Source of the DNA: Candidatus Latescibacterota bacterium
GTDB lineage: Bacteria; Latescibacterota; UBA2968; UBA8231
Length of the DNA: 64,000 nucleotides
NCBI GenBank assembly: GCA_022820485.1
Contig: JAJEFJ010000104.1
Location: 52,968 to 116,967 of the forward strand
Direction of reading: 5' to 3'
In this document: piece after piece, positions 19,223-63,578 of the stretch
Position numbering within the stretch: position 1 is the first letter of the stretch
How the letters are laid out: every line of letters begins with the position of its first letter
The notes under the pieces: generated by a model
Told to the model about the DNA's origin: nothing
The model's input: only the letters and a program-made list of their open reading frames with translations
Databases searched by the model: none
Program-made: the position numbers and the translations under genes

Positions 19223-19576
19223 TTGACAGACAGAGCCGGTACCGTAATGCCGATCAACTTCAACTTCAACTTCTTGCCATCTTTTTTGCATTTCACTTTC
19301 ACGTCAACTGCGCTCCCTTTCGTGGCAGTATCCAACAATGCGGTGTTCATCTTGGAATTATTTAATTTTAGCTTAACTGAATTCAGACATTTTTTGATGG
19401 CTAGAACCTTAACGGCATTGCGTGACTTGGTCTTACGACCCTTGGAAAGAAATACAGCATACTCCTTCCCTTGGTGATTCACGCAATGATCTTTATCAGG
19501 AACAAAAAATACAACCCCTTTTCTTTTTTCTTGAATTTTGAGATGAATAATTCCTGTTGATTCGTAACGTTTAGAC
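19219..19576 (-). CDS. Small Lys-rich basic hypothetical protein (~119 aa), very low GC
   Basis: AAAGGAG lies 7 nt upstream of the ATG at 19576 (MSKRYESTG...). The C-terminal tail is K-rich (KVKCKKDGKKLKLKL). Its stop abuts the SIR2-like start, so the two are likely co-transcribed. GC is ~38% against the ~60% backbone. Confidence 0.4.
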
Positions 19577-45517: not shown

Positions 45518-46471
45518 ATGCCCAAAAAAGTTAAAAAACGCAATCAAGAGAATCCGCTTAAGTTCGAGTTTTCTATGGTTGGCAAACAGCTAGCGACAAA
45601 AAATGAGTCGAAATTTTGTGAGATATATAGGCATCCTCACGGTTCTCTTTTTCAGGGGGATTCCATCGAGTGGCTCAAGAGCTTGGACACGGAAAGCGTA
45701 GATCTTATCTTTGCCGATCCCCCTTATAATATCAACAAAGCCGAATGGGATAGATTTGAGAACCAAGAACAGTACATTGAATGGTCAATGCAATGGATTA
45801 GAGAAGCACATCGCGTTCTAAAGAAAACAGGGACGATGTATCTCTGTGGATTCTCTGAGATACTTGCCGATATAAAGCAGCCGTCTATGAAGTGTTTTAG
45901 ATCGTGCAAGTGGCTGGTGTGGTACTATAAAAACAAAGCCAATATGGGAAGTGACTGGGGAAGGTCGCATGAGAGCATTCTTCACTTGCGTAAATCCAAG
46001 AAACAGACATTTAATATCGATGACATTAGAATCCCCTATGGCAATCATACGCTAAAGTACCCATCTCATCCACAAGCAGAGTCAAGTCAGTACGGAAACG
46101 GAGCGAATCAAAAAAATGTTTGGACGCCGCATCCGGGAGGGGCAAAGCCACGAGATGTTATAGAAGTGCCGACCACGTGTAATGGAATGAATGAAAAAAC
46201 ACCTCATCCTACACAAAAACCAGAAGAACTCGTTCGGAAGTTTGTCCTAGCCTCGTCAAAAGAAGGCGATCTTGTTATTGATCCGTTCTCAGGATCGGGG
46301 ACAACGTTAGTCGTTTCTGAACAACTCGCACGAAGATGGGCTGGTTGTGAAATCAATCCCGAATACAATAAATGGGCGATAGACAGGATAGAAAATGTGA
46401 TTCGCAGATCAAAAGATGGATGGATCGCACTTGATAAAGAAAATGAAAAAAGAAGGAGTTCAATCCGTTGA
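45518..46471 (+). CDS. Beta-class DNA methyltransferase (N6-adenine or N4-cytosine), low GC
   Basis: Motif IV comes first (LIFADPPYNI) and motif I later (VIDPFSGSGTTL), which is the beta-class order. GC is ~38-40%. The downstream gene overlaps as ATGA. Confidence 0.75.
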   Translation: MPKKVKKRNQENPLKFEFSMVGKQLATKNESKFCEIYRHPHGSLFQGDSIEWLKSLDTESVDLIFADPPYNINKAEWDRFENQEQYIEWSMQWIREAHRVLKKTGTMYLCGFSEILADIKQPSMKCFRSCKWLVWYYKNKANMGSDWGRSHESILHLRKSKKQTFNIDDIRIPYGNHTLKYPSHPQAESSQYGNGANQKNVWTPHPGGAKPRDVIEVPTTCNGMNEKTPHPTQKPEELVRKFVLASSKEGDLVIDPFSGSGTTLVVSEQLARRWAGCEINPEYNKWAIDRIENVIRRSKDGWIALDKENEKRRSSIR

Positions 46472-47367
46472 ACTTGGAAAGACTGGTAAGTATCGCCTGC
46501 GATAAAGACTATTTTCGCGACATTGATAGGTACTGCGACTTTGCAAAGGCGTATCTTGAATTCATCAAAGACAATCTACAAGCTGTAATTGTATCGAGAA
46601 ATGAGAACAATTATCAATTTTTTCAATACAAAGATGATGGGACATACAATGTAACAAGACCAATTAACTCCAAATTGATGTATTCATTAGAAGATATGGA
46701 GGCTGCTATTGACCCTTTTAAAGAAATTCTTTTGGATATTCAAGGCGAGGATGATAGTACTGATAATTCGTCTAACCGAGAGATCATTAATAGAAGCATT
46801 TATACAGCGCAACAATGTATTGGAGCTACTCTTGATGCCTTGCCTGCTAATAAGTCAAATACGGCAAGAAAGATAAATGGCGATCTGTTTGAAAGATTCA
46901 TACGTCTCATTATAGGCAAAGTAGGAGTTTATGTCACGCAAGGGACAGTGCAAGTTCCGGTGAAAATAGATGGAAAAGTCGAATTTACTATGAATTATCA
47001 GCACGATCTTATTGTGAAAGAACTTGAAGAAGTACGTGCGATAGGGTCTGTAAAAACATCGAGCAAGGACCGTCTAGCTAAAATATTTGTCGATAAATTC
47101 CTATATAATCGCTTGACAGATAGAGACACACCCCATTTCGCTATTTTTCTAAACGATGTGCAAAGAAAAGGCAGGGACGGCAACTACGGTATCAATACAA
47201 CTTTTCTTTCAGGGCACTTTAAGGGCTATACAGTTAAACTAAATCCATTAGATGGAGTATATTATTTTGACATACGTCCTGACATGCAGATAAAGGATAT
47301 TTTGAAGGATCACATAAAAACCTTCGACCATTTTCTATTTGGCGATATTTGGAAGCTCGTCAGGTAA
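46468..47367 (+). CDS. Putative type II restriction endonuclease (partner of the upstream methyltransferase); no recognisable family
   Basis: It is translationally coupled to the methyltransferase and has the same low GC. 299 aa with no motif match, so it is assigned by context. Confidence 0.4.
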   Translation: MNLERLVSIACDKDYFRDIDRYCDFAKAYLEFIKDNLQAVIVSRNENNYQFFQYKDDGTYNVTRPINSKLMYSLEDMEAAIDPFKEILLDIQGEDDSTDNSSNREIINRSIYTAQQCIGATLDALPANKSNTARKINGDLFERFIRLIIGKVGVYVTQGTVQVPVKIDGKVEFTMNYQHDLIVKELEEVRAIGSVKTSSKDRLAKIFVDKFLYNRLTDRDTPHFAIFLNDVQRKGRDGNYGINTTFLSGHFKGYTVKLNPLDGVYYFDIRPDMQIKDILKDHIKTFDHFLFGDIWKLVR

Positions 47368-51086: not shown

Positions 51087-51980
51087 ATGATTACCGAAGA
51101 ACAAGTCGAGAACCGAAAGCACTGGATCGACGAGATAAGTCGCTCAAGCGGCGATTTTGGCGCTGATGCCGAAAGGATCGAGCAAAAGCTGGAGCAGGAA
51201 ATCCAAGCACAAGGGATTGACGCCCTGCTTGGACACCTGCGTTTATGTGGTGTAATCCCGGAATGCTATGGGCACGACACTAGCGAAGAGAAACTGTACT
51301 CCAAATATACCGATGTTGTGATTCATGCAGCATATACTGCAATGGGGTTTACGAGCTTGGTTCTTAAGGAGCGAGCGAATGTAGCTGATGTTGAGTGCGT
51401 CACCAACGACTACAGTTTTGTCGCTGATGCAAAAGCATTTAGACTGAGCCGCACAGCGAAGAATCAGAAGGATTTCAAGGTACAAGCAATGGACAACTGG
51501 AAGCATGGAAAGCCCTATGCGATGGTTGTTTGTCCAGTATATCAACTTCCATCTCTAAAAAGTCAGATATACAAACAGGCTGCTGAGAGCTCCGTTTGCA
51601 TTGCGACGTATACGCACCTAGCTGTACTTGTTCGTTATGCCCAGAAATCGACTCAGAACAAGGCAATAGAGTTGGTTCACGAGGTGTTTAGAACGGTCGA
51701 AGCGATGAATCCGTCAAAGAATGCAGTTAGCTACTGGCAGGCAGTAAACCGCAAATTTTTGGCTTTTGACGAAGTAATCGGTGCAATATGGCGGGATGAG
51801 AAACTCGCATCAAACGAGGCCATCACTATCTTAAAAGAAGAAGCACTCACTTTCCTCGCCAAGGAGCGAGAGCGAATTATGAGACTGACGTTACGCGGCG
51901 ACCCTACTCGGCGGCATCTAACAGAGGCCGAAAGGCTTCGAGGCTGGGCACCTGTATGGCCGCGCGGAACAACTGCTTGA
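51087..51980 (+). CDS. Hypothetical protein with a PD-(D/E)xK-like motif (possible orphan restriction-type nuclease), low GC
   Basis: TNDYSFVADAKAF fits D...(D/E)xK. GC is ~42% over 51087-51890. The last ~30 codons run into high-GC DNA antisense to the Rpn remnant, so the 3' end looks rearranged. Confidence 0.3.
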   Translation: MITEEQVENRKHWIDEISRSSGDFGADAERIEQKLEQEIQAQGIDALLGHLRLCGVIPECYGHDTSEEKLYSKYTDVVIHAAYTAMGFTSLVLKERANVADVECVTNDYSFVADAKAFRLSRTAKNQKDFKVQAMDNWKHGKPYAMVVCPVYQLPSLKSQIYKQAAESSVCIATYTHLAVLVRYAQKSTQNKAIELVHEVFRTVEAMNPSKNAVSYWQAVNRKFLAFDEVIGAIWRDEKLASNEAITILKEEALTFLAKERERIMRLTLRGDPTRRHLTEAERLRGWAPVWPRGTTA

Positions 51981-52167
51981 GGCGCTGCACATCGTCAATG
52001 GTCGCAATGTGGTCGGCCAACGGATCCGACGCGGCCAGCCCAAAGCGAATCGCCAGCACGTCGAGCAGGTCTTCAACGGCGCGTTCGCGGCCTCCTTGCT
52101 CAATGCCTTGCTCAATGCCTTGCTCAATGCCTTGCTCCCACGCATCGGCGCAACCACGCATCCACAT
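51904..52167 (-). pseudogene. C-terminal remnant of an Rpn/YhgA-family (PDDEXK_7 transposase-like, DUF4351) protein
   Basis: ...EQGIEQGIEQGIEQGGRERAVEDLLDVLAIRFGLAASDPLADHIATIDDVQRLKQLFRAAIQV matches the characteristic DUF4351 C-terminus. No N-terminal nuclease domain remains upstream. Confidence 0.5.
52096..52137. repeat. 12-bp tandem repeat (ttgctcaatgcc x3.5), which encodes the EQGI repeats of the Rpn remnant on the minus strand
   Basis: This repeat was read directly from the sequence. Confidence 0.8.
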
Positions 52168-52357
52168 CCATCCCGGCCGGACGACCCATCAGCGGCGTGA
52201 ACGGTAGGACGCCCACATTGCCCGACGCCAAGTGCGCCAGCCCATCCAACGCGGCCAGCCGGATCACCTTGTAGCGAGCCATCCGCAGCGGCATGGACAA
52301 GGCCGTGCTGTCGGTGGTCTGAAACTCGCAGTGAACTAACGCCTCCTCGCCAAGGAA

Positions 52358-52390
52358 TAATAAAGAAAGCCCCTGAAAAATCAGGGGCTT
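52358..52390 (-). terminator. Rho-independent terminator downstream of tRNA-Val
   Basis: On the minus strand the hairpin AAGCCCCTGAtttttCAGGGGCTT is followed by TTCTTTATTATT. Confidence 0.6.
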
Positions 52391-52396
52391 AGAAGA

Positions 52397-52473
52397 TGGT
52401 GGGCGATACTAGACTTGAACTAGTGACCTCCTGCATGTCAAGCAGGCGCTCTAGCCAGCTGAGCTAATCGCCC
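52397..52473 (-). tRNA. tRNA-Val (anticodon GAC)
   Basis: The minus strand reads GGGCGATTAGCTCAGCTGGCTAGAGCGCCTGCTTGACATGCAGGAGGTCACTAGTTCAAGTCTAGTATCGCCCACCA. It folds as a cloverleaf with an anticodon loop TTGACAT and an encoded CCA. Confidence 0.85.
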
Positions 52474-52634
52474 TTAAATATTTTGGATTTTTGTACGCTA
52501 TCCAGTATAATCTTAAATAATAACAACAGAGCATCAACGCCGTCAAGGTTAATAGGGTAGAGCGGATAGGGGCAGTGGGTCATTAAATCGACTACACAAT
52601 TTGTCCTTTACACCTTAACCCCCGAGGTGTGCTC

Positions 52635-55600
52635 ATGTTGCAGATTTTTTTGCTTCTCGTTTTAGCGGGCGTGGGATTGTCGTGTTCAGATGACCCGAAG
52701 CCGACGGCCCACGATTCTGTACCCCCCCCCCCCAGCTAGCTGCGGCTAAGGCCACAGCGACCGCGTCCTACGAGGTGCCGCAGTCGCTGATCGACCTCGT
52801 GGAGTCCTACTACGAGGCCAACAAGGCCAAGGCCAACCGCAACTACGGTGCCAACTGGTATCGCGTGTTGATCGCCTTCGGCGCGAGTTTGCCGACATGG
52901 GAAGGCGCGGGAGCGGCTCCCACCACCGCCTACACGGCTGCCGAGGCCGAGGATTCCTACGCCGTCTGGTCTGGGTGGAAGCCGATATGGGATGCTCTTA
53001 AAGAGCTGGAGAAGGTCGATGACAACGACGGCGGCACGGACGGCAGCGGCGGCACGGACGACACCACGCCACCCCCGTCCCAAGACCCGGTCATCAGCAT
53101 CGCCCCGGGCTCGGCCATCACCGAGGGCGACTTGGCTATTTTCACGCTGACGGCCACGCCCGCTCCCTCGGCGGGCCTCACCATCAAGCTGACCATCAGC
53201 GAGTCTGGTTCCTTTGTCTCGTCCGGAGCAAAAGACCAGACCTATATGAACACGAGCGGCACGGTCAGCATCACGGTCGGCACCGACGACGATAATACGT
53301 CCGAGGCGGCGGGCACCATCACGCTGACGGTCAACGACGGGTCCGGCTACACGCCTTCTAGCACCAACGGCTCGGCCACCGTCACCGTCAGCGACAACGA
53401 CGGCGGTGCCCCCCCGCCCGATCCACAGCCGGACCCGCAGCCCGATCCACAGTCCGATCCGCAGACGCTCCAAGATCTGCAGACGCAGTACAGCAGTCTG
53501 ATCAGTACGGTCGGCGATTACTACGATGCCAACAAGAACAACGCCAACCGCAACTATGGTGTGAACTGGTATCGCGTGTTGATCGCCTTTGGCGTGTCCC
53601 TGCCGACGTGGGAAGGTGCGGGAGACGCTCCCACCACTGCATACACGGCTGATGAGGCCGAGGATTCCTACGCTGTCTGGTCTGGGTGGAAGCCGATATG
53701 GGACGCCCTAATAGAATTTGAGGCCCTGCAGCCGACGTCCACCGACGAGGGCACCGTCACCGTCGATCCTGATCCGCCGGTGTTTGAGGCCCAGCGATTG
53801 CCGTCCAGAACCTACTCTTTTACGATGCAGGACGGTACATCGGTGCCTAATGGTGACAATTCTTTCACCGGTTTTCAAATTGGCACGTCTGGATCCATTA
53901 CGCTGCGCTTCACGCATAGCGACGTGGGGTCTGGTGGTGGGAAGTGCTTCAGGGGCAGGTTTGTTAATATCACAGCCCCGAAAGGGCACGACATCACCTT
54001 AGTAGCGAAGAAGAAGTCGGATGGGAGCAGCAGCACCTATAAAGGTACCCCCGGTTGGGACGACTACTCCGGCTGCAGCAGTAACGAATACCGCGAGGTT
54101 ACGATCACGTGGACACGCAACAGCGATCCGCTGCCTACCACCGACGCGGACAAGAAGCTCACCTTCTTTTATCGAGACTATGCCCATTCAGATGGTAGAT
54201 ACTACCATGGTGACGACTTCGCGTTCTATCTCACGGAGAAGCCTGTGACCCCGCCCCCGTCCCTAGCCCCAGCTAAGGTGTGGTCCCTCACTAAGCCGGA
54301 TGGCACGGCTTGGGCGGGCTTCACCGAGGGCACGTCCGGAACGCAGGAGCTGCACCTGTCGCACAACCATGACACAGACGAGGATTACTGTTCGTTCAAT
54401 GGCGACATTGAGATCGTGGGGGCTGCTAGCCGCCACAACGTCACGTTCAAGACCAAGGGCGGCAAGGTGCTCGGATGGTTCGACCCCTCCTGCGACAACA
54501 TCGACTTGCAGACCGACGGCTATCGGGCGATAGAGGTCAAGTGGAACAGCAGCTCCAACAACGCCTTCAACGCCGACGAGACGGTCAAGATATGGTTCAA
54601 AAACCGGGATAAGGGAGGAGCCGTCGCCGCGTACAAAGACACAACCGAGTGGACGTTCTCCATCCCGGACGACGGCATGTCCCCGTCGCAGGTATGGAGC
54701 CTCACCAACACGGACGGCTCGGCGTTATCTAACCCATCACTTCTGTTTGAGGAGGGTACGTCCGGGTCGAAGAAGTTACGGTTCACGCACGACCGGTTAA
54801 GCGCAAGCGACTGCTCGTTCAACGGCAACTTTGAGATTACACAGGCCGCGGCCCGTCATAAGGTTAAGTTCACGACGGACGGCACGCGGTTGGACGGTAC
54901 GCCGGGCTGGCGCGACTTCGGCTGCCACCATCTCAAAGGGTCGGGTACAAACAAGTACCGCGAGGTGACGCTCTCGTGGGACAGCACCACCGACTACCAG
55001 GGTAGCACCGACTCCTTCGTGCTGCGTTGGCATGACCGAGGGAAGACCGAGGACGGAACGCCCGTGCAATCCGTCAACTTCATTTTTGCAATCGGCCCCG
55101 ACGGCAAGGACGGCCGGGTCAATCTCATCGGTAATACCCTGACCATCCGCGAGGGCACCAAGGACAACCATACCTTTGTCTTCGACCGACCGAATGGGAC
55201 TGATCTGCGGTTCTTTCATGGCAAGGCGGAGCTTGTGTTCACCCCGTCGTCCTTGAAGGATGACATCGGCGCGACCGTCTTCGGCAACGGCAAGAACGAC
55301 GGATGCGAATGGTACTTCGATGACGACAATCCCCTGACCGATGACTTTGCCCAGCCGTCCTGCACCTTGTCGTGGGACTGGCATACTAACGGGGAAGCCG
55401 GTCCCACCGGCACGATCGCCTTGCAATGGACAGATAGGGTGCCTACCATCCTCAATTCGGGCTATACGCCCTTGCCCCAGACGGTGAACACCAACATCAA
55501 CATCGTCGATGACGGCCTAACCGAGTGTCCGCCCCGCGCACCGGTCCCGGAGAATGGGAAGTGTCGGGCCTACACAGAAGAAGAGTTAAAAGCCCAGTCC

Positions 55601-56710
55601 GCAGAGGCGTTTCAAGCAGCGATGGAAGACCGTCGGGAGGAGGTCTTGGCGCAGGCGCAGCCGTATCCATATCCGTCGGGGCCGTGTACGCCTGACCAAG
55701 ACCTCCTCGATAGGGCGGTGTACTACACCAATGCCATGTGGGTGTCCGACCGGGTGTGCGACCCCATCGCCGACATGAACTCGAACCGCTGCACCCGCTA
55801 CGGCGAGCACCTCGACTACTGGTCGGACGTGCTGGGTGGCCTGCTCGACACGCGGTCGCCCCGCATACCCTTCTTCCGGTGCTACAACAGGTGCGGGGGG
55901 GAGAACCAGTCCGCCTGTGAGAATGTGACCGGCGAGTCGCGGCCGTTAGACTACAAGCCGGAAAATTACGAGGCCATGGTTGACCGGTGCGACTGGAACC
56001 CCCGCTGGACGGCGGTCCAGAAGTTCATCGGGGCTGACTATCATCCACCGGCCACGGTGGCGTCCCTACAGGAGATGAAGGCCAACGACACGCTCAGGCT
56101 AGGGCTGTCGAACATCGCTGACCGCAGCTCCTACAGCGACGACATGGGCTTCTACGACGAGCTCATCACCGAGATCGGGTGGCTGTCCGCCTGCCGGGAC
56201 GGGCTGCGGTATGATCCCGCGTTCAGCAGTCGTAGTGGCTACCAGTCCCCTAGGGCATGGGTCGAGATCGTGGACGACGGCTTCATCCCATGGGTCGAGG
56301 GCACGGTCTATCCGGCTGGCACCTACGTCACATGGAACGGTAATTACTTCCAGGCGAAGGCCACGCAGAAGGACCATGTTGACAAGAACCCGCTCAAAGG
56401 GTCCTTTCGCGGGGCGTGGACGTACTTCTTCTTGACCGAGCACACCGCCGACGCGAAGTCAATTCGGATACGCTCTAACGTCCGCGGCTCTCACCAGGTT
56501 GAGGCCATGATTGGCAACAGCAACAGCTTCGCGGGGCACTCGCCCGTCGATCGGGTGCAGTTCGATATAGTCAACGGCATGTCCGACGTGATCGAGCTCA
56601 ACTGCTCGTCGGATGCTCATTCGGGTCGGGTGTGGCTCTATCCCGTTGCGGGTGACGTGCAGATTCCCCAGGTCACGGGAGGGTCGGTCAACCCGAAAGT
56701 CTGTCGCTAG
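52635..56710 (+). CDS. Giant (>1340 aa when in phase) repeat-rich surface lipoprotein; the signal-peptide exon (52635-52736) is currently out of frame with the body (52694-56710)
   Basis: The ATG at 52635 encodes MLQIFLLLVLAGVGLSCSDDPKPTAHDSVPPPP, a lipoprotein signal with lipobox-like VGLSC. A 12-C tract follows and a TAG stop comes 2 codons later. The -1 frame is open from 52694 through 56710. The body has two ~75-aa near-identical repeats, a Calx-beta-like domain, a (PDPQ)n linker, three ~125-aa novel beta modules, a Cys-rich region and a CBM5/12-like YVTWNGNYFQAKA motif. Confidence 0.6.
52722..52733 (+). repeat. Poly(C)12 homopolymeric tract at the junction between the signal peptide and the mature protein
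   Basis: 12 consecutive C were read directly from the sequence. 13 or 10 C would restore a single reading frame. Confidence 0.8.
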
Positions 56711-56730
56711 CAGTGATGTGGCATCGCCTC

Positions 56731-56790
56731 GGCCCGCCCTAGCCTTCTTCTTTCTTAGAGGAGCTAGGGCGGGCCTTGCTGTTTACTACT
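56731..56790 (+). terminator. Rho-independent terminator after the giant lipoprotein gene
   Basis: A perfect 13-bp inverted repeat GGCCCGCCCTAGC...GCTAGGGCGGGCC is followed by a T-rich stretch. Confidence 0.6.
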
Positions 56791-56950
56791 TACAGATGAG
56801 GCGGACTCCTGAAACTTTCCTTATCCTTATCATCATGCTCAGATGCCTATTCTGCCTTTGTCTGCGTCCATCTGCGGATTATATCGTGGATGATTTTGCT
56901 ATAGGTGCCGCAGGACCCGCTTGACAAGGTGCATCAGAAAGGAAAGCAAA

Positions 56951-58003
56951 ATGCCCACTACCTACCGAGTTGGCCTCATCGGCTGCGGGCGCATGGGTGC
57001 CACCATCGACGACGAAGTCAAAAGCGGCCCCAATGCCCAGCTTTTTCTGCCGTATTCGCACGCCGCGGCCATCGTCGCCTGCGAGCGCATGGAATTAGTC
57101 GCTGTCTGCGACCCGATCGCCGAGAAGGCCGAACGCATCCGCGACCGCTACGGTGCCCAACGAGCCTATGCCGACTACCGGGAAATGATCGAGCGCGAAA
57201 ATCTCGCCGTGGTCAGCATTGCCACCCGGCCGGGGCCGCACGCCGAGCAGGTGATTTTCGCGGCCGAAGCGGGCGTCAAAGGCATCTACTGCGAGAAATC
57301 GCTGTGCAACGCCGTACACGAAATGGACGCCATGCTGCAAGCCTGCATGCCGCGGGGCGTCAAATTCAACTACGGCACGCAGCGGCGCTATGCCGCGCTC
57401 TACCGCGATGCGCGCGCTATGATCGAGCGCGGCGACCTCGGCGAGGTACAGGCGGTCGTGGCAAACTGCGGGATCAGCGTGGCGCAATGGGGGCACACGC
57501 ACGCGGCCGACATGATGCTCTTTTTCGCGCTGGACTCGGAGGCGGAATTTGCGCAGGGGACGGTACAGGCAGAGGCCGCAGATTGGGAGGGCGATCGGCT
57601 GACTATAGATCCGAGGATCAGCAATGGATACGTGCAGTTCAAAAACGGGATTCACTCGTACTTAGTGGGTGCGCCCGGCTGGGAATTCGAAATCAGCGGC
57701 ACCGAGGGCACGCTAAGGACCTTGAGCAATGGGATGGGCTATAGCCTGCGCAAGAAAGACGAGCACGGCGAGTTGCGCCCGGTAGCTGCGCCCGAAGCGA
57801 TCATTGAAAGCGGCACGCTGCGCGGGATGGAGGACATCGTCCGGGCCATCGACGAGGACGGCGATACCCAAGGCAATCTAACGCTCGCCTGTCGCAGCCA
57901 AGAGCTAATTTTCGCAATCGTCGAATCGCATCGGCAGGGTGGGGCGCGAGTGGCCTTGCCGCTGGAGAACCGGGCCTTGTCGATTGCGCCAGATCACTAC
58001 TAG
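56951..58003 (+). CDS. Gfo/Idh/MocA-family oxidoreductase
   Basis: The Rossmann motif is VGLIGCGRMG, with the family EKP motif (CEKSL variant). The start is ATG 56951 after GAAAGGAAAG. The ORF-track start at 56921 is unlikely. Confidence 0.75.
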   Translation: MPTTYRVGLIGCGRMGATIDDEVKSGPNAQLFLPYSHAAAIVACERMELVAVCDPIAEKAERIRDRYGAQRAYADYREMIERENLAVVSIATRPGPHAEQVIFAAEAGVKGIYCEKSLCNAVHEMDAMLQACMPRGVKFNYGTQRRYAALYRDARAMIERGDLGEVQAVVANCGISVAQWGHTHAADMMLFFALDSEAEFAQGTVQAEAADWEGDRLTIDPRISNGYVQFKNGIHSYLVGAPGWEFEISGTEGTLRTLSNGMGYSLRKKDEHGELRPVAAPEAIIESGTLRGMEDIVRAIDEDGDTQGNLTLACRSQELIFAIVESHRQGGARVALPLENRALSIAPDHY

Positions 58004-58008
58004 CGCCG

Positions 58009-58437
58009 ATGCAGATCAGCATTGTTTCCTACGAGAAACATCGCAACTCGGCACTAGAAGCCGCCGAGCAGGAGTATATCAAGCGGCTCTCGCGGCAGGC
58101 GCGAGTCGCGCTGTGCCCGCAAAAAGGTAAGGCACGGGGCGGCCTGCCGGACCGGCTGTTGAAAGGGACGTATGTCGTCGGTCTGTACGTGGAGGGAAAG
58201 CCGTTTACCTCTGAGCAGTTGGCGCAGCAGCTTCAGCGGCTGATGAACCAAGGTCATTCACATTTAGTGCTGGTAATAGGAGGAGCCGAGGGAATGCCGG
58301 CGGGGGTAGAATCTCAAATACGAGAGCAGTGGTCGCTGTCGCCGCTGACTTTTTCTCACCAGCTAGCGCGCCTGCTGTTGTTGGAAGCTTTGTATCGGTC
58401 CTTTGACATTCTAAGCGGCGGGCGGTACCACAAATAG
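58009..58437 (+). CDS. rlmH: 23S rRNA (pseudouridine1915-N3)-methyltransferase (SPOUT family)
   Basis: ~142 aa with LVIGGAEG and the C-terminal SLSPLTFSHQLARLLLLEALYRSF...GGRYHK, typical of RlmH. Confidence 0.8.
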   Translation: MQISIVSYEKHRNSALEAAEQEYIKRLSRQARVALCPQKGKARGGLPDRLLKGTYVVGLYVEGKPFTSEQLAQQLQRLMNQGHSHLVLVIGGAEGMPAGVESQIREQWSLSPLTFSHQLARLLLLEALYRSFDILSGGRYHK

Positions 58438-58441
58438 CCGC

Positions 58442-59572
58442 TTAGAAGTACGTCATCAGTTTGTCCCACAGCCCCATGCGGCCGATGCTCTTTTCAGCGT
58501 GGATGGGCACCACGGCCAGTAGGCTATCGCCCAGCGAGACTCGCAACTTGCCCAGTTCAGTTCCGGCGACGATCGGGGCTGGAAATTCCTCGGGCAGCTC
58601 TAGGTGGTGGACGAGTTGTTTCTCCTGTTCGGGGGTAAGCACGGCGACTATGGTGTCTTGGGCCAAGGCGCCTACCTCTGGCTCTATGCCCCAATTGAGT
58701 ACGACCTTGCCCATCCGTTGGCCGGTTTCGACGAGGGGCACGCGCGAGAAGTTGTTAAAGCCCCAGCTTAGTAGGCGGCGGGTCTCCCGGTCGCGGACGC
58801 GCGTGGAGGGGGCTCCCAAGATCACAGAGATTAGGCGCATGTTGCGGCGCGAGGCTGTGGAGACGAGGCAGGAGCCGGCGCGGCGCGTATAGCCGGTTTT
58901 TAGCCCATCAAGCCCTTGGAACCGCCCCAGCAGCCTGTTGGTGGCGCGAAGCGTGAAGTTGCCGTTGCGGAAAGGCTTGCGGCGGGTAGATGACCATTCT
59001 AGGGTCTCCGGGTGGCCCAAGATGAGCTCGCGGGCGACTTTGGAGAGGTCGTAGGCCGTGCTTAGGTTGCCCTTGCCGCGTGGCGTGTTGTCGAGGCCGT
59101 GGACATTGACAACACGCGTGTCGTGCATCCCGAGGCTTCGGGCGCGCTTGTTCATCAGACGGACAAAACCGGCGGTTGAGCCGCTGATGTGCTCGGCGAT
59201 GGCAACACAGGCATCGTTGGCCGAGGAAATGGCCACCGCCTCCATCAGTTGCCCCAGCGTAAAGACTTCACCCCGCTTTAAGAAAACCTGAGAGCCGCCG
59301 GTGCGTGCGGCGCGACGGGAGACCCAGACCGAGTCCTCGAATGAGATTTCGCCAGCTTTGACCATCTCCAAGACCACCAGTTCGAGCACCAGCTTCTGGG
59401 TGCTGGCTGGCGAGCGCTGCACGTCTGGGCGGTGGGCAAAGAGCACGGTACCGCTCTCGGCTTCGAGCAAGAGGGCAGCGGCATACGGCGGCCTCGGGCC
59501 GGGGTTGAAGTCGGCGGCTTGAAGCGGTACACACGACAAACATACAGCGACGCACAGCGAACGAATGTACAT
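58442..59572 (-). CDS. D-alanyl-D-alanine carboxypeptidase (serine-type, PBP5/DacA-like)
   Basis: It has a signal peptide, then SxxK (ASTQK), SxN (SSAND) and KTG (KTGYT) motifs at the right spacing. 376 aa. Confidence 0.8.
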   Translation of the reverse strand: MYIRSLCVAVCLSCVPLQAADFNPGPRPPYAAALLLEAESGTVLFAHRPDVQRSPASTQKLVLELVVLEMVKAGEISFEDSVWVSRRAARTGGSQVFLKRGEVFTLGQLMEAVAISSANDACVAIAEHISGSTAGFVRLMNKRARSLGMHDTRVVNVHGLDNTPRGKGNLSTAYDLSKVARELILGHPETLEWSSTRRKPFRNGNFTLRATNRLLGRFQGLDGLKTGYTRRAGSCLVSTASRRNMRLISVILGAPSTRVRDRETRRLLSWGFNNFSRVPLVETGQRMGKVVLNWGIEPEVGALAQDTIVAVLTPEQEKQLVHHLELPEEFPAPIVAGTELGKLRVSLGDSLLAVVPIHAEKSIGRMGLWDKLMTYF

Positions 59573-59752
59573 TGTTTCTCTCGCTCAGAAAGCCAAGGGG
59601 CGTTACGGGGGATGGGCCTAAATGTAATAATTAAGGCACGTTAGGTCAATCAGGTATTGCACCGCCCATTCGCGCGACCTCTGCCCGTTTGGTCGGCGGG
59701 TGTTTCCTTACGAGGACCAGCAGTGTAATTTTAGAGATGGAAAGGACGGCCT

Positions 59753-60736
59753 ATGACTGCGGCAACCATACCTCAACTCACGTATAGTGGCAAGCCGATC
59801 GCGATGGAGCAGGTGGGCGAACTCCGCCGCTCGGATGATGTAATCGGCGATCGGGACGCGCTGTGGGAGCGGATGGAAGAAGACGGGTATTTATTTTTGC
59901 CGGAGTATTTGGACCGGCGCGAAGTGTTGGCGGCGCGGGCCGAATTGTGCGATCGCCTCTTCAAGGCTGGGGTACTAGACCCGACGCGGCCGCCCATGGA
60001 AGGCATAGTGGCCACGGGCAAGACGGTCAATCCAGCGGCCACTGGCCCATTTATGCCCGTTTTAGCGCGCAACAACCCGCCGCTGGACAAGGTCCTTCAC
60101 GACGGCCCGATGATGGACTTTTACGAATTTTTCTTGGGCGGTCCGGTCCGGCATTACGACTACACGTGGTTCCGCGCCAAGCAGCCGGGCACCAACACGG
60201 CGACGACCCCGCATTGCGACATCGTCTATATGGGCCGAGGCACCAAGGCGCTCTACACCTCGTGGACGCCCTTCAGCGACGTGCCCTACGAGATGGGGGG
60301 GCTGATGGTGTTGGAGGGGTCGCACAAGAACGAAGCCCTAAAGCAAGGCTACGGCCAGACCGATGTGGATGCGTTTTGCGAAAACGACGGCCCCACCGCG
60401 CGCCAAATCGTCGCGTCCGCGCAGCAGCAGGGCCGCGAACTGACACGCGAAGAACGCGAGCAAATTCGCTGGAACTCGTCCGGGGCCTACTCGCACGACG
60501 CGATTGCCGTGCGCGAGGAGCTACAGGGCCGCTGGCTGACGGCCGAGTACCAGATGGGGGATTTGCTGGTCTTCTGCATGTACCTGTTGCACGCCAGCTC
60601 AGACAACCAAACGGACCGCATTCGCCTGTCTTCCGATACGCGCTACCAGCGCTCACACGAGCTAATAGACGATCGCTGGATCGGCGACGACCCGCCCACG
60701 CACGGCATCCGCGCCAAGCGGGGCATGGTGTGCTGA
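59753..60736 (+). CDS. Phytanoyl-CoA dioxygenase (PhyH) family Fe(II)/2-oxoglutarate-dependent oxygenase
   Basis: The H-x-D iron-binding motif (TPHCDIV), a distal His (LLHASSDN) and the R of RIRLS are present. 327 aa. Confidence 0.65.
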   Translation: MTAATIPQLTYSGKPIAMEQVGELRRSDDVIGDRDALWERMEEDGYLFLPEYLDRREVLAARAELCDRLFKAGVLDPTRPPMEGIVATGKTVNPAATGPFMPVLARNNPPLDKVLHDGPMMDFYEFFLGGPVRHYDYTWFRAKQPGTNTATTPHCDIVYMGRGTKALYTSWTPFSDVPYEMGGLMVLEGSHKNEALKQGYGQTDVDAFCENDGPTARQIVASAQQQGRELTREEREQIRWNSSGAYSHDAIAVREELQGRWLTAEYQMGDLLVFCMYLLHASSDNQTDRIRLSSDTRYQRSHELIDDRWIGDDPPTHGIRAKRGMVC

Positions 60737-61327
60737 TTAGTTGACGGATGGATCTGCGGGAAATACGGAGAGGGGGCGATATTTACCCCCCATGGAGTGG
60801 AGCACTGCTTGCCACATGGTTTCGGGGGTGGGCGCTAGGACCATCTCGGGGTCGCCTGGGGCCAAAAACCAAGTGCCAGCACTAATCTCGGATTCGAGCT
60901 GGCCCGGCTCCCAGCCAGCATAGCCCAAGTAGAACCGCAACCGCGGCGCGTCGGCCCGGAGTACTTCGTCCTCGGCGTACTTGGTATCGAGGTTGCCGCC
61001 CAGATAGAGGCCGTCGAGAATTTTCGTCCCCCCTTCGACTAATCCGTCGAGCCGGTGCAAAAAGAAAAGATAGCGCTGGTGTACTGGCCCGCCTTGGTAG
61101 AATATCCGTCCCAACTCTGCACACGCATCTTCACCACCTGCGAGCTGTTGTAGGGAATCAGCCGCATAGCGCCGGACTCGCTCGCCGAGGGGCTGGTTGA
61201 TCACCAAGCCCATGGTGAGGTCTGTTTCGCTGTAGTGGGTAATGAGCACGACCGCGCGGTCGAAGTCGAGCGAGTCGAGTGCGGGAGTAGCGACCAACAG
61301 GGTGCCGGTTTGGAGCGGTGCGGGCAT
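60737..61327 (-). CDS. YqgE/AlgH-family protein (UPF0301)
   Basis: The family pattern is GTLLVATPAL.D..F.RAVVLI..H...GA.GLVINQP, with C-terminal GYAGWEPGQLE. The start is taken at the internal ATG 61327. Confidence 0.7.
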   Translation of the reverse strand: MPAPLQTGTLLVATPALDSLDFDRAVVLITHYSETDLTMGLVINQPLGERVRRYAADSLQQLAGGEDACAELGRIFYQGGPVHQRYLFFLHRLDGLVEGGTKILDGLYLGGNLDTKYAEDEVLRADAPRLRFYLGYAGWEPGQLESEISAGTWFLAPGDPEMVLAPTPETMWQAVLHSMGGKYRPLSVFPADPSVN

Positions 61328-61395
61328 GACAGGTATCTGGTGTAGCGAGTGTCGCTGTGAACGATAATAAAGATCGCGCGGCGAGACAACCTCGC

Positions 61396-62553
61396 TCAAG
61401 AGTACGCCAAGTAGCGGCGGCGAATAGCGTCAAAGGCTTGGCACGCCTCGTCCCAAGCGGCCTGCAACTCGGCGACGGCCGTGCCCGCGTCGAGGGCGCA
61501 GCGGATCTGGTCGGTGCCGGCGAGGCGATCGAAGTTGTGGATGCCACCGGCGGGTACGCGCCAGGCAAATTCGCTCGGGTAGAGCCGACGCACGGCCGCG
61601 ACCGCCTCAAAACCAACGACGACAGGCTCGAAGGCTGCGCGGTTGAGGACGTGGACTTGAACCCCCTCGCAGGTCTCGCCCGCGTACTTACCGGCCGTTG
61701 GTTGAAAAAACACCGGGCGGAAGCCCACCCCAGGCAGCGCTCGGCTGTTGAGCGCGTCGGCTAGGCGCGCCCCGTCGATAAACGGCGCGCCAAACTGCTC
61801 AAAAGGCTTGGTCGTCCCCCGTCCTTCAGACACGTTGGTCCCTTCGAAGAAACAGGTTCCCGGATAGATCACCGCGGTCTCTGGACTAGGCATGTTGGGC
61901 GATGGCGGCACCCACGGCAGGCCGGTGTCCTCCCAGTAAAAGGAGCGTTGCCAACCCTTCATGGCGACGATGTGTAGTTCTGCGCCGATTCCGTACTCCT
62001 CGTTGAAAAGCCGGGCGAGTTCGCCGATGGTCAGGCCGTAGCGCACCGGAATTGGGTACTGCCCAACGAAAGAGGCAAACGCCGGGTCGAGACAATTTCC
62101 GGCGATAGCTTGGCCGCCAATGGGATTGGGGCGGTCGAGGACGAGAAAGGGAATGCCCGCTTGGGCGCAGGCGGCCATGCTCAGGCTCATGGTGTAGAGA
62201 TAGGTGTAAAAGCGCGCGCCGACGTCTTGGATGTCAAAGAGCATCAGCTCGACGCCGGTGAGCATGGCGGCATCCGGTGCGCGCACTTGGCCATAGAGAC
62301 TGTAGGTTGGTACGCCGGTGCGGTGGTCGGTAGAATGGGCGATGTGCTCGCCGTCTTGGGCTGCACCGCGGATTCCGTGCTCTGGCCCGTACAAGGCGAC
62401 GAGTGTACAGAGATCGGATTGATGCAGCCGGTCGGCGGTGGATTGTAGGTGCGCATCAACGCCTGAGTGATTAGTAATCAGGCCGACGCGCCGGCCGCGG
62501 ATCAGGTCGGCATCTGCAAGCAGGCATTCGCAGCCGAGGACGACGCGGCTCAT
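61396..62553 (-). CDS. DUF1343-domain protein (NamZ-like exo-beta-N-acetylmuramidase family)
   Basis: The DUF1343 landmarks are present (VGLITNHSG, YGPEHG, DIQDVGARFYTY, LDRPNP). The true start is ATG 62553 (MSRVVLG), which overlaps the upstream GT2 stop (ATGA). The ORF-track start at 62982 is an artefactual extension. Confidence 0.7.
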   Translation of the reverse strand: MSRVVLGCECLLADADLIRGRRVGLITNHSGVDAHLQSTADRLHQSDLCTLVALYGPEHGIRGAAQDGEHIAHSTDHRTGVPTYSLYGQVRAPDAAMLTGVELMLFDIQDVGARFYTYLYTMSLSMAACAQAGIPFLVLDRPNPIGGQAIAGNCLDPAFASFVGQYPIPVRYGLTIGELARLFNEEYGIGAELHIVAMKGWQRSFYWEDTGLPWVPPSPNMPSPETAVIYPGTCFFEGTNVSEGRGTTKPFEQFGAPFIDGARLADALNSRALPGVGFRPVFFQPTAGKYAGETCEGVQVHVLNRAAFEPVVVGFEAVAAVRRLYPSEFAWRVPAGGIHNFDRLAGTDQIRCALDAGTAVAELQAAWDEACQAFDAIRRRYLAYS

Positions 62554-63578
62554 GGCTCGGGCACGAGCGCGGAGGCGCGCTGAACGCGCCGCGCAAAATA
62601 CTGGTAGAGAATGCTGCCCGCATAGACGCCATCGCGTGCGACTGCTGCGCCGGGGATGGCTTGGCTTTGGCGGCGGCGGCGATAGATGTTGCGCGGATGC
62701 GCGAGGCACCAGAGCAAGGCCGCACAAGGGGCCGAGGCACTGGACCACTGGCCTCGGCGGAGGTAGTAGAGCACGGCCAACACCTCCAACCACAGGCGCA
62801 AGGGCAGCAGCCACAGTAGGCGGCCCAGTCCCGCATTTTTGCACAGCGTGATGAGGCTGTTGCGGTGGTTGAAGTACGTTTTGCGGAAGGTGGCCGGAGG
62901 CTGGGAAAAGCCCGAGTGATGAAAAACCACCGACTGCGGCACAGCGCGGATTTGGTAGCCAGCGAGTTGGAGACGCCAGCACAAGTCGATTTCCTCAAAG
63001 TGCATGAAGTACTCGGGGTCGAAAAAACCGACTTGGCGGGCCGCAGCGACGCGGAGAAAGAGGGCTGCGCCGCAAGCCCAAAAGAGCGGCACGGACGCAT
63101 CGTATTGGCCCTCGTCGCGCTCGCAGCAGTCGAAGAGCCGCCCCCGACAAAAAGCGTAGCCCAAAGCGTCAATATAGCCGCCAGCTCCGCCTCCATAATC
63201 AAAGCGGTCGGGCGCACTGGCCGAGCGCAGCTTGGGCTGGCAGGCGGCGATCCGGGGCTCGCTGTCGGCCATGGCGACGAGGGGAGCAAGCCAGTTCGGC
63301 TCGACGCGGGTGTCGTCGTTGAGCAGCACGGCGTAGCGGGTGCGGACGGCCGCCAAGCCGCGGTTGCAGGCTGCGGCAAACCCTAAATTGCGCTCGTTGG
63401 GCAAGACCTCTAACGCGGGAAAGGCGGCTTTGGCCCGCTGCAAGCTAGGCGCGTTGCCCCCGTCGTCAACGACGAGCACACAGACGGGGTAATTGCTGTG
63501 GGCATAGACCGAGGCCACGCAGTCGTAGAGCACGTCTGCGCGGTAGTGCGGGATGACGACGGTAACGGCCTCGGTCAT
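62550..63578 (-). CDS. Family 2 glycosyltransferase
   Basis: The pattern is VVIPHYRADVLYDCVASV...VLVVDDGG, with DxD (LNDDT). 342 aa. Confidence 0.75.
   Translation of the reverse strand: MTEAVTVVIPHYRADVLYDCVASVYAHSNYPVCVLVVDDGGNAPSLQRAKAAFPALEVLPNERNLGFAAACNRGLAAVRTRYAVLLNDDTRVEPNWLAPLVAMADSEPRIAACQPKLRSASAPDRFDYGGGAGGYIDALGYAFCRGRLFDCCERDEGQYDASVPLFWACGAALFLRVAAARQVGFFDPEYFMHFEEIDLCWRLQLAGYQIRAVPQSVVFHHSGFSQPPATFRKTYFNHRNSLITLCKNAGLGRLLWLLPLRLWLEVLAVLYYLRRGQWSSASAPCAALLWCLAHPRNIYRRRRQSQAIPGAAVARDGVYAGSILYQYFARRVQRASALVPEP

What the first reader, a model, noticed from the sequence alone, without database searches (positions are those of the whole stretch)
52775..56710. Architecture of the giant lipoprotein: duplicated N-terminal module, Calx-beta-like domain, PDPQ linker, three novel ~125-aa beta modules, Cys-rich region and a CBM5/12-like motif
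Two ~75-aa segments at 52784-53010 and 53494-53720 are ~90% identical at the DNA level. Examples are LIDLVESYYEANKAKANRNYGANWYRVLIAFGASLPTWEGAGAAPTTAYTAAEAEDSYAVWSGWKPIWDAL and LISTVGDYYDANKNNANRNYGVNWYRVLIAFGVSLPTWEGAGDAPTTAYTADEAEDSYAVWSGWKPIWDAL. That identity implies recent duplication or gene-conversion potential. Between them lies a Calx-beta-like segment (GTVSITVGTDDDNTSEAAGTITLTV...ATVTVSDNDG), followed by a PPPDPQPDPQPDPQSDPQ linker. Three tandem, diverged modules then share VWSLT(K/N)xDG(T/S)A, EGTSG(T/S), CSFNG(D/N)(I/F)EI and (K/R)EVT(I/L)(T/S)W. Next comes a ~350-aa segment with ~14 Cys, then YPAGTYVTWNGNYFQAKATQ (resembling chitin-binding CBM5/12), and a final beta-rich tail ending ...KVCR. 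None of the modules matches a family I can name with confidence. With the poly-C switch and the intragenic repeats, this looks like a variable, carbohydrate-binding surface adhesin of an undescribed family.
Basis: partly seen in the sequence, partly recalled or inferred. Interest (0 to 1): 0.7.

Follow-up and report, generated by a model that had tools for sequence, protein, structure and literature searches.

The report
Switchable mosaic surface protein, sponge symbiont
This is a strain-specific 1,311-codon gene for an exported, probably lipid-anchored mosaic protein in a bacterium whose closest database relatives are Gemmatimonadota from sponge metagenomes; its front end belongs to a large family found across many phyla of sponge symbionts, its back two-thirds has almost no relatives, and a run of 12 C's that varies between assemblies separates it from its signal peptide.

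Summary

The repeated module is not a recent private duplication (dS 0.6). It is an unannotated four-helix domain that alternates with Calx-fold domains in more than 80 large exported proteins. In the genome scan these came from MAGs of about ten bacterial lineages, many of them documented Ircinia sponge symbionts. The CBM5/12 resemblance stays below threshold, so carbohydrate binding is unsupported. Residues 340-1160 have almost no relatives among billions of proteins.

The C12 run splits the lipoprotein signal peptide from the body. Only C10 or C13 fuse them, and the assemblies show C11 and C12. G/C runs of 9-18 nt recur at the 5' ends of family genes in other phyla (P about 1e-10), which favours phase variation. 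Close relatives of this genome lack the gene.

The parts
52397..52473 (-). tRNA-Val(GAC). It lies just upstream of the gene. Two other assemblies of this locus end about 80 nt beyond it, at window ~52319.
   Evidence: ARAGORN; contig ends
52629..52739 (+). Short ORF encoding a lipoprotein-type signal peptide, M(L)MLQIFLLLVLAGVGLS|C SDDPKPTAHDSVPPPPS*. The likely start is ATG 52635, 7 nt after a GAGG. It is out of frame with the main ORF when the tract is C12.
   Evidence: The lipobox and Shine-Dalgarno readings are taken by eye from the sequence.
52722..52733 (+). Poly-C tract (C12), encoding Pro-Pro-Pro-Pro. C10 or C13 fuse the signal peptide to the body (1357 or 1358 aa). C11 or C14 give a 1339- or 1340-aa product with no signal peptide. 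C12 splits the gene.
   Evidence: It is the only G/C run longer than 8 nt in the 64-kb window.
52775..56710 (+). Main ORF, 1311 aa as listed from GTG 52775. Its reading frame is open from 52694.
52799..53011 (+). Helical module copy 1 (aa 9-79): a four-helix domain of the family-wide type, here the variant without the Cys pair.
   Evidence: module HMM i-E 4.7e-22; AF2 helices 3-16, 22-34, 55-64, 66-83 at pLDDT about 85-95
53078..53413 (+). Calx-beta-fold beta-sandwich (aa ~102-213). It keeps the conserved acidic positions E117, D173, E177, D207 and D209.
53416..53464 (+). PDPQ linker: an imperfect 12-nt tandem repeat, 4.1 copies.
   Evidence: TRF; pLDDT below 50
53507..53722 (+). Helical module copy 2 (aa 245-316).
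   Evidence: module HMM i-E 2e-21; AF2 helices 232-253, 259-271, 292-299, 303-318
53804..54253 (+). Beta module A (aa ~344-493), with a Cys pair at 391/434.
54272..54685 (+). Beta module B (aa ~500-637), with a Cys pair at 539/573.
54686..55111 (+). Beta module C (aa ~638-779), with a Cys pair at 680/717. It is modelled as an 8-strand beta-sandwich at pLDDT 70-86.
   Evidence: no specific PDB relative
55112..55525 (+). Probable fourth, diverged beta module D (aa ~780-917), with a Cys pair at 844/863. It resembles the last domain of P0056.
   Evidence: z 6.8 to module C; hhalign E 0.0016; P0056 alignment. Its own structure model is poor.
55526..56194 (+). Cys-rich region (aa 918-1140, 10 Cys). 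No homologue was found. The model suggests helices, but at low confidence.
56288..56677 (+). Conserved C-terminal domain (aa 1172-1301). It includes the CBM5/12-like motif at aa 1173-1205 (nt 56291-56389).
   Evidence: the only exhaustive-search hit, P0167, E 7.5e-19, 40% identity; Pfam CBM_5_12 at 18.6 bits, below the 26.2 cut-off

Best explanation
The gene encodes an accessory, exported mosaic protein. It is probably anchored to the membrane by an N-terminal lipid, and it most likely acts at the cell surface in contact with the sponge host or its matrix. The source bacterium's closest database relatives are Gemmatimonadota MAGs, including ones from sponge metagenomes.

Shown:
- The layout is signal peptide, poly-C tract, [four-helix module, Calx-beta-fold domain, Pro-rich linker, four-helix module], three to four Ig-like beta-sandwich modules each with a Cys pair, a Cys-rich region, and a conserved ~130-aa C-terminal domain.
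- The bracketed front end is the signature of a large family of exported proteins. In the genome scan, that family was found in MAGs of about ten bacterial lineages, many of them documented Ircinia sponge symbionts.
- The rest of the protein is almost unique to this lineage.
- The gene sits in a variable genome region and is missing from close relatives.

Inferred:
- The family part serves as a Ca2+-stiffened stalk or interaction scaffold. Sponge aggregation factors, which are built from Calx-beta domains, are the obvious thing to bind or imitate.
- The lineage-specific C-terminal part is the ligand-binding end.
- Production of the anchored protein is switched on and off by slippage of the poly-C tract during replication. 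Only C10 or C13 join the signal peptide to the body. This gives a population that is mixed for this surface protein.
For: Source organism and habitat:
- Neighbouring proteins fall in 90% clusters whose named members are annotated as Gemmatimonadota MAG proteins.
- The same locus occurs in an ENA assembly tagged KELL22-1 and in a Logan assembly.

Family:
- 149 homologues were found, all matching only aa 1-~380.
- 84 of the 120 best carry 1-5 copies of the helical module.
- The module-Calx-module layout recurs.
- 79 genome loci carry the module. All are MAGs, from Pseudomonadales, cyanobacteria, Nitrospirales, Acidobacteriota, Alphaproteobacteria, Acidimicrobiia, Dehalococcoidia and Latescibacterota.
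- The jk18x and p16x MAGs among them are Ircinia symbionts.

Export:
- Homologues start with signal peptides or anchors.
- A Cys pair bracketing the module covaries: 91 modules have both, 33 have neither, 3 have one (Fisher 2e-27). This indicates a disulfide.
- The protein has 20 Cys, an even number.

Fold:
- The AF2 model of aa 1-328 has mean pLDDT 84.

Switch:
- Tract lengths are C12, C12 and C11 in three assemblies that are otherwise 99.98% identical or better.
- The frame consequences of each tract length were computed directly.
- In the related loci, 10 of 15 G/C runs of at least 9 nt lie within 300 nt of a family ORF's 5' boundary. That zone is 4.7% of the sequence (binomial 1e-10).
- In related genes, a G13 tract is in frame and a G15 tract is out of frame.

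Accessory status:
- Four contigs that are 91-93% identical in the flanking genes lack the gene.

Background from papers:
- Calx-beta is enriched in sponge symbionts (PMC9531527; PMC11706023).
- Sponge aggregation factors are built from Calx-beta domains and need Ca2+ (PMC5400394).
Against: - No assembly shows the 'on' tract length (C10 or C13).
- The C11 versus C12 difference could be homopolymer noise from sequencing or assembly, possibly of the same sample.
- The signal peptide has no basic residue before its hydrophobic core, and its lipobox (G-L-S-C) is atypical. No signal-peptide predictor was available.
- Other family members use ordinary signal peptides rather than lipoboxes.
- No binding partner, expression data or localisation data exist.
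- Ca2+ binding is inferred only from conserved acidic positions.
- The related loci in the tract statistic are not independent, because they include paralogues and orthologues.
- The sponge origin of the OZ and CBDC long-read MAGs, and of the window itself, was not verified.
Confidence: 0.55

Rival explanations
1. One reading: a chitin- or cellulose-binding adhesin that attaches through a CBM5/12 module near the C-terminus.
For: Pfam CBM_5_12 is the only family that matches the tail at all: E 0.016 on the whole protein and 0.002 on the segment, at aa 1173-1205. By eye, the W..G..Y..G..V.W.G..Y.A spacing fits the motif.
Against: - The scores of 15.7-18.6 bits are below the 26.2-bit cut-off.
- The one homologue of this domain (P0167, 40% identical) gives no CBM_5_12 hit at E<=0.1.
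- The exposed aromatic pair that follows 'Y.A' in typical CBM5/12 sequences is A-T here. This point rests on my own knowledge of the family and was not tested.
- The model of this region has pLDDT below 45.
- PDB sequence searches found nothing.
Confidence: 0.12
2. A recently inactivated accessory gene. On this view the poly-C frameshift is a lesion, and the gene is on its way to being lost.
For: - All three assemblies are out of frame with the signal peptide.
- The gene is absent from close relatives, and it lies in an IS-rich variable region.
Against: - A 1311-codon frame remains fully open.
- The two module copies show dN/dS of 0.24.
- The break lies exactly in a 12-nt homopolymer placed between the signal peptide and the body. 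This is the classic position for a reversible switch.
- The same kind of tract recurs at the 5' end of family genes in other phyla, and some of those are in frame.
Confidence: 0.18
3. A structural matrix, biofilm or envelope protein used for bacterium-to-bacterium cohesion that depends on Ca2+, with no specific host target.
Against: There are no RTX repeats and no type I secretion signal. No Pfam adhesin family passes threshold. In the genome scan, the family was found only in MAGs, many from sponges, which points to a role tied to that habitat. The two readings are not mutually exclusive.
Confidence: 0.15

Closest known systems
Calx-beta-containing 'eukaryotic-like proteins' of sponge symbionts (a Pfam-level class, PF03160; Kelly et al. 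2022, PMC9531527; PMC11706023)
   Same: These are large exported multi-domain proteins with Calx-beta-type domains that are enriched in sponge-associated MAGs of many phyla. The homologues found here mostly carry PF03160, and many come from the same Ircinia MAG set.
   Different: Those papers count Pfam domains only. They do not describe the four-helix module, its alternation with Calx-fold domains, the beta modules or the 5' homopolymer tracts. The Calx-fold domain of this protein does not itself pass PF03160.
Calx-beta domains of Na+/Ca2+ exchangers and integrin beta4 (PDB 2dpk, 3gin, 3ead, 3fq4)
   Different: Sequence identity is only 10-14%. There is no HMM match, and Ca2+ binding was not tested. 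The setting is a bacterial extracellular protein rather than a cytoplasmic regulatory loop.
Sponge aggregation factors (Calx-beta plus Wreath domains; PMC5400394)
   Same: They are extracellular, are built from divergent Calx-beta domains, and mediate Ca2+-dependent adhesion in the host tissue where many of the family's carriers live.
   Different: No sequence relationship was shown. The Wreath, VWA and VWD domains were not found or could not be tested. The comparison concerns a possible partner or model for mimicry, not membership.
Phase-variable surface proteins of host-associated bacteria switched by homopolymer tracts (contingency loci; general survey in PMC2831843)
   Same: A G/C homopolymer lies in the 5' coding region between the signal peptide and the mature protein. 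Its length sets the reading frame, and its length differs between assemblies.
   Different: The comparison cases are pathogens and commensals of animals. My paper search found no report of this for sponge symbionts or Gemmatimonadota. Switching was not observed directly here.
P0056 and P0012 (unannotated 1139-aa and 1685-aa proteins) and the broken giant gene on L082 that ends in P0167
   Same: These are the closest in overall layout. P0056 and P0012 have a signal peptide, a helical module, a Calx-fold domain, further helical modules, and then beta modules of the A-D type. The L082 gene has helical modules and the same C-terminal domain.
   Different: Identity in the beta modules is 18-27%. 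Neither P0056 nor P0012 was found to match the Cys-rich region or the C-terminal domain. P0056 has a C18 tract 28 nt upstream of its start codon rather than inside the coding region.

Membership tests
Calx-beta (Pfam PF03160) | Sequence passes the Pfam model's gathering score | tested here: not met
   No hit at E<=1 on the whole protein or at E<=10 on the segment. None of 30 homologous segments hits at E<=0.01.
Calx-beta (Pfam PF03160) | Calx-beta beta-sandwich fold | tested here: met
Calx-beta (Pfam PF03160) | Acidic Ca2+-coordinating residues at the distal end, and actual Ca2+ binding | tested here: inconclusive
   E117, D173, E177, D207 and D209 are invariant across 23 homologues. Their equivalence to the Ca2+ sites of NCX1 is inferred from motif position only. 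Binding itself cannot be tested with these tools.
CBM5/12 (Pfam PF02839) | Sequence passes the Pfam model's gathering score | tested here: not met
   15.7 bits on the whole protein and 18.6 bits on the segment, against a cut-off of 26.2. The homologue P0167 has no hit.
CBM5/12 (Pfam PF02839) | Small beta-hairpin fold with exposed aromatic residues | tested here: inconclusive
   The model of aa 1160-1311 has pLDDT below 45, so no fold comparison is meaningful.
Bacterial lipoprotein (signal peptidase II substrate) | Hydrophobic signal peptide ending in a lipobox with an invariant Cys | tested here: inconclusive
   MLQIFLLLVLAGVGLS-C has the hydrophobic core, and it has S at -1 before the Cys. 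It also has G at -3 and no basic n-region. This was read by eye, with no predictor available.
Bacterial lipoprotein (signal peptidase II substrate) | Signal peptide in frame with the mature protein | tested here: not met
   C12 (window, L002) and C11 (L001) are both out of frame. Only C10 or C13 fuse the two parts.
Homopolymer-switched phase-variable (contingency) gene | Long homopolymer in the 5' coding or promoter region whose length sets expression | tested here: met
   C12 at 52722-52733 lies between the signal peptide and the body, and the frame consequences were computed. It is the only G/C run longer than 8 nt in 64 kb.
Homopolymer-switched phase-variable (contingency) gene | Tract length polymorphic within or between populations, with both on and off alleles | tested here: inconclusive
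   C11 versus C12 is seen between assemblies that are otherwise nearly identical. No 'on' allele was seen, and assembly noise is not excluded. In related genes, G13 is in frame and G15 is out of frame.
Helical-module plus Calx-fold family found in sponge-symbiont MAGs (defined here) | One or more copies of the ~65-75-aa four-helix module (W..RVL.AFG ... TAAEA ... W..W.P....L..LE) | tested here: met
   Two copies, with HMM i-E 4.7e-22 and 2e-21.
Helical-module plus Calx-fold family found in sponge-symbiont MAGs (defined here) | Module alternates with Calx-fold domains in a large exported protein | tested here: met
   The module-Calx-module layout aligns end to end with more than 20 homologues. 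Export depends on the tract state.
Helical-module plus Calx-fold family found in sponge-symbiont MAGs (defined here) | Cys pair clamping the ends of the module | tested here: not met
   Both copies in this protein are of the minority type with neither Cys (33 of 127 modules).
RTX / LapA-type giant adhesins | RTX repeats, a type I secretion signal, and LapA or Big-type repeats | tested here: not met
   No such Pfam hits on the protein. Only weak LapA hits occur in 6 of 30 homologous segments.
Sponge aggregation factor | Wreath domain | not testable with these tools
   The Wreath HMM is a supplement of PMC5400394 and is not in Pfam. No comparison was run.

The most novel reading that the evidence does not exclude
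This gene is one instance of a system shared across phyla of sponge symbionts. The system consists of host-facing surface proteins built on a previously unannotated four-helix module, disulfide-clamped in most copies, that alternates with Calx-fold domains. Expression of these proteins is put under stochastic on/off control by G/C homopolymer tracts at the 5' end. On this reading, mutualistic sponge symbionts from many phyla use contingency loci of the kind known from pathogens to vary what they show to the host.
Probability: 0.35. Interest if true: 0.75.

Novelty: new variant of a known kind. Interest (0 to 1): 0.55.

Why it matters
Sponge microbiome studies report enrichment of 'eukaryotic-like' domains such as Calx-beta, but they say little about the proteins that carry them.

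Three concrete, testable things come out of this locus:
- A new ~70-aa helical domain marks a large family of exported proteins, found here in MAGs of about ten bacterial lineages, many of them sponge symbionts.
- There is a clear split between a shared 'family' front end and a nearly unique back end. This is what one expects of a scaffold carrying a fast-evolving ligand-binding head.
- G/C homopolymer tracts recur at the 5' ends of these genes. If they really switch expression, then sponge symbiont populations are heterogeneous for host-facing surface proteins.

That last point bears on how symbionts avoid being eaten or rejected by a filter-feeding host. It can be checked with existing metagenomic reads.

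Tried and rejected
- Pfam on the whole protein and on nine segments, and NCBIfam: nothing above threshold.
- PDB sequence searches with the Calx-like profile, the helical-module profile and the C-terminal 972 aa: nothing.
- Homologue searches for aa 340-1311. The word-indexed search gave zero hits. Exhaustive HMMER against 1.84 billion representatives gave one hit, to the last 130 aa only. Peptide-pattern scans of genome and metagenome contigs gave none.
- A seven-sequence profile of the beta modules found only close relatives of P0056.
- hhalign of the beta modules against the Calx-like family showed them to be unrelated (probability 0.6%). The idea that modules A-D are degenerate Calx domains was dropped.
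- Structure of aa 636-1311 with a shallow alignment: only module C is usable. Its Foldseek hits are generic Ig-like sandwiches, none at E<1e-3.
- No fold match was obtained for the helical module. Both PDB searches of the three-domain model listed only matches consistent with its beta-sandwich domain. The AlphaFold database library was not available.
- The extended similarity between the Cys-rich region and P0167 reaches only z 3.4, so I treat it as unproven.
- Paralogues in the 64-kb window: none.
- The promoter scan gave no qualifying + strand site upstream. By eye, TTGGAT-17-TATAAT at 52483-52511 is a possible promoter.
- Paper search for phase variation in sponge symbionts: nothing relevant.
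Full report
**The locus**

ORF 52775..56710 (+) encodes 1311 aa. Upstream lies a 36-codon ORF, 52629..52739: MLMLQIFLLLVLAGVGLSCSDDPKPTAHDSVPPPPS*. It looks like a lipoprotein signal peptide, with a hydrophobic core followed by S-C. However, it has no basic n-region, and G sits at -3 (read by eye).

A run of twelve C's at 52722-52733 separates this ORF from the long frame, which is open from 52694. I rebuilt the sequence with each tract length:
- C10 or C13 give one 1357- or 1358-aa precursor that carries the signal peptide.
- C11 or C14 give a 1339- or 1340-aa product from ATG 52690 with no signal peptide.
- C12 splits the gene.

A tRNA-Val lies on the other strand at 52397-52473.

**Source organism**

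Exact copies of the neighbouring proteins fall in clusters whose named members are annotated as Gemmatimonadota MAG proteins. The surrounding genes are housekeeping genes (PurL, 2-oxoglutarate dehydrogenase E1, a pyridine-nucleotide disulphide oxidoreductase, xylose isomerase, PBP5, RlmH), interspersed with a DNA methylase and a HindIII-family restriction endonuclease.

The locus was recovered from two other assemblies. L001 is an ENA assembly tagged KELL22-1. L002 is a Logan assembly of SRR16351681. They are 99.98-99.99% identical to window 52319-64000. They differ from the window at one SNP (53045, S91G in a Gly/Asp-rich linker), and L001 also differs in the tract. The window and L002 have C12, and L001 has C11.

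The intragenic repeats are therefore not an assembly artefact. The tract length is either polymorphic or hard to assemble.

**The repeated N-terminal module**

At the correct register, identity is 86% over 204 nt and 81% over 228 nt, with 63 of 76 residues identical. The two copies differ by dS 0.60 and dN 0.14, and their longest identical run is 29 nt. This is an old duplication under purifying selection, not a recent one.

The module is also not private to this protein. A search with the whole protein returned 149 large proteins (about 800-2300 aa), most of them carrying Pfam Calx-beta domains. All of them match only residues 1-~380. An HMM built from the two copies and iterated found 1-5 copies in 84 of the 120 best hits. 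The module, beta domain, module layout aligns end to end with more than 20 of them.

The module matches nothing in Pfam or in PDB sequences. AlphaFold2, given a 23-sequence alignment, models it as a four-helix domain at high confidence (mean pLDDT 84 for residues 1-328).

Among 127 near-complete modules, 91 have both a Cys just before helix 1 and a Cys in the terminal 'CLE' motif. A further 33 have neither, and 3 have only one (Fisher 2e-27). This covariation indicates a disulfide clamp, and hence an extracytoplasmic location. The two copies in this protein are of the Cys-less type. Homologues begin with signal peptides or signal anchors.

**The Calx-beta question**

E117, D173, E177, D207 and D209 are invariant in the family alignment. 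They sit where Calx-beta motifs place their acidic residues, but that equivalence is an inference. Strict family membership by HMM is not met.

**Distribution**

A scan of one genome per species with the close-subtype module alignment gave 83 relatives at 79 loci. All are MAGs. They come from Pseudomonadales and Pseudohongiella (14 or more loci in one genome), a Prochlorococcaceae cyanobacterium, Nitrospirales, Bryobacterales, Thermoanaerobaculia, Vicinamibacteria, Alphaproteobacteria, Paracoccaceae, Acidimicrobiia, Dehalococcoidia and Latescibacterota.

The jk18x and p16x MAGs are listed as Ircinia sponge symbionts in the supplement of Kelly et al. 2022. That paper, and a later one on Actinobacteriota, report Calx-beta among the 'eukaryotic-like' domains enriched in sponge symbionts. 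I could not verify the origin of the OZ and CBDC long-read MAGs. One hit is annotated as Methylobacterium. Sponge aggregation factors are themselves made of divergent Calx-beta domains and depend on Ca2+. This makes them a natural candidate partner or model for mimicry, but that idea is a hypothesis only.

**The C-terminal two-thirds**

Modules A (aa ~344-496), B (~500-637) and C (~638-779) are clearly homologous, with local-alignment z of 13-28 against shuffles. Each has one Cys pair.

A fourth unit, D (~780-917), also has a Cys pair. It is only weakly related: z 6.8 to C, and hhalign E 0.0016 in register. The modules are unrelated by profile to the Calx-like domain.

For residues 340-1311 the searches gave almost nothing:
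- The indexed search found nothing.
- Exhaustive HMMER against 1.84 billion representatives found one protein, P0167, which matches only residues 1162-1301 (40% identity).
- Genome and metagenome pattern scans found nothing.

These searches did not return the protein's own copies that are called on L001 and L002. Near-identical sequences therefore seem to be hidden, so very close orthologues cannot be excluded.

Within the family set, the module profile picks up two domains at the end of P0056 (E 3.6e-8 in a 120-sequence set) and also P0012. A seven-sequence profile then found only close relatives of P0056 in the big database. P0167 is the tail of a giant gene, broken by frameshifts on a 3x-coverage contig, that also carries helical modules.

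A model of residues 636-1311 is confident only for module C, which is an eight-strand sandwich at pLDDT 70-86. Its PDB matches are generic Ig-like, pilin or chaperone sandwiches, none at E<1e-3.

The Cys-rich stretch has 10 Cys in 223 residues, not ~14 in ~350.

The CBM5/12 match stays below threshold. It is absent from P0167 and cannot be judged structurally.

**Genome context**

Four contigs from related genomes are 91-93% identical across the PBP5, RlmH and Gfo/Idh/MocA genes. They lose synteny at window ~56940, about 230 nt past the stop codon of this gene. In its place they carry transposases, APH-type kinases, a TIR-domain gene and other genes. tblastn finds no trace of the giant protein there. 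On the other side, L001 and L002 both end at ~52319, just beyond the tRNA. The gene is thus part of the flexible genome.

**The tract in family context**

I looked for long homopolymers in all fetched loci and found 15 G/C runs of at least 9 nt in 448 kb of family loci. Ten of them lie within 300 nt of the 5' boundary of a module-bearing ORF. That zone makes up 4.7% of the sequence (binomial about 1e-10). The loci are not independent, which inflates the significance.

Examples:
- L012: a G13 tract inside the signal peptide, in frame (...GFLLGLLLLPGGGGLAQDL...).
- L077: the related gene has G15 plus two extra bases, and is out of frame.
- L004 and L005: C11 and C13 in two paralogues of one Pseudomonadales MAG.
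- L079: a C12 tract 37 nt upstream of the ATG, in Dehalococcoidia.
- L083: a C18 tract 28 nt upstream of the ATG of P0056.
- L056: a G17 tract abutting a perfect TATAAT, upstream of a signal-peptide ORF.

In the window itself, the C12 is the only G/C run longer than 8 nt. My paper search turned up no report of phase variation in sponge symbionts.

This pattern makes a reversible switch the most economical reading of the C12 tract. It is not proven: no 'on' allele was seen, and homopolymers are error-prone. A -1 ribosomal slip or transcriptional slippage on the C run would give the same fusion. I did not test either.

**Verdict**

The interpretation needs three corrections:
1. The duplicated module is an ancient family domain, not a recent duplication.
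2. Carbohydrate binding is unsupported.
3. The protein is a chimera of a widespread family front end, found largely in sponge-symbiont MAGs, and a nearly orphan back end.

I read the protein as a surface or host-interaction protein whose expression is probably phase-variable. The architecture and family placement are well supported. The function and the switch are inferred.

Noticed in passing
L004:2212-2222, L005:2828-2840, L012:780-792, L077:866-880, L029:522-534, L033:2865-2873, L079:2806-2817, L083:4956-4973, L019:637-650: G/C homopolymers of 9-18 nt sit at or just upstream of the 5' ends of helical-module family genes in Pseudomonadales, Paracoccaceae and Dehalococcoidia MAGs, and in L083, whose taxon is unknown. 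Ten of 15 such runs fall in 4.7% of the sequence (P about 1e-10). In related genes, G13 is in frame and G15 is out of frame.
   Followed up: partly
L056:873-889: A G17 run directly abuts a perfect TATAAT box, about 60 nt upstream of an ORF that starts with a signal peptide (MKFPLNRLALFAFAPLAALWVFAQTAA). This looks like a tract that sets promoter spacing.
   Followed up: no
window 52319 (ends of L001 and L002), tRNA-Val 52397-52473, and window ~56940: Two independent assemblies break just beyond the tRNA-Val. Related genomes lose synteny about 230 nt after the gene's stop codon, and there they carry IS elements, APH kinases and a TIR-domain gene instead. The gene lies in a hypervariable region.
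   Followed up: partly
window 51087-51980 and 45518-47367: A HindIII-family restriction endonuclease gene (Pfam E 3e-102) lies next to the locus. A DNA methylase gene is followed by an unannotated 299-aa ORF, in a low-GC stretch (0.447 at 46-48 kb against about 0.60 elsewhere). These are probably acquired restriction-modification modules.
   Followed up: partly
window 52095-52135 (- strand ORF 51904-52167): A 12-nt unit (caatgccttgct) repeats about three times and encodes (EQGI)n in a small unannotated minus-strand ORF that overlaps the end of the restriction endonuclease gene. I cannot tell whether this is a real gene.
   Followed up: no
helical modules of the 120 homologues (e.g. P0048 746-821): A Cys before helix 1 and a Cys in the terminal 'CLE' motif are present together or absent together (91 both, 33 neither, 3 one; Fisher 2e-27). 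This implies a disulfide clamp. The two copies in this window lack both.
   Followed up: yes
window 53045: This is the only base substitution between the window and the two other assemblies over 11.7 kb. It is non-synonymous (S91G) and lies in the Gly/Asp-rich linker of this gene.
   Followed up: yes
window 17643-17650: This C8 run is the second-longest G/C run in the window. It lies inside the 577-aa minus-strand ORF 17558-19291, which has no Pfam hit.
   Followed up: no
L082:1-6028: A series of short adjacent ORFs on a 3x-coverage long-read contig appears to be one giant family gene broken by frameshift errors. It has at least four helical modules and ends in the same C-terminal domain as the query.
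   Followed up: partly
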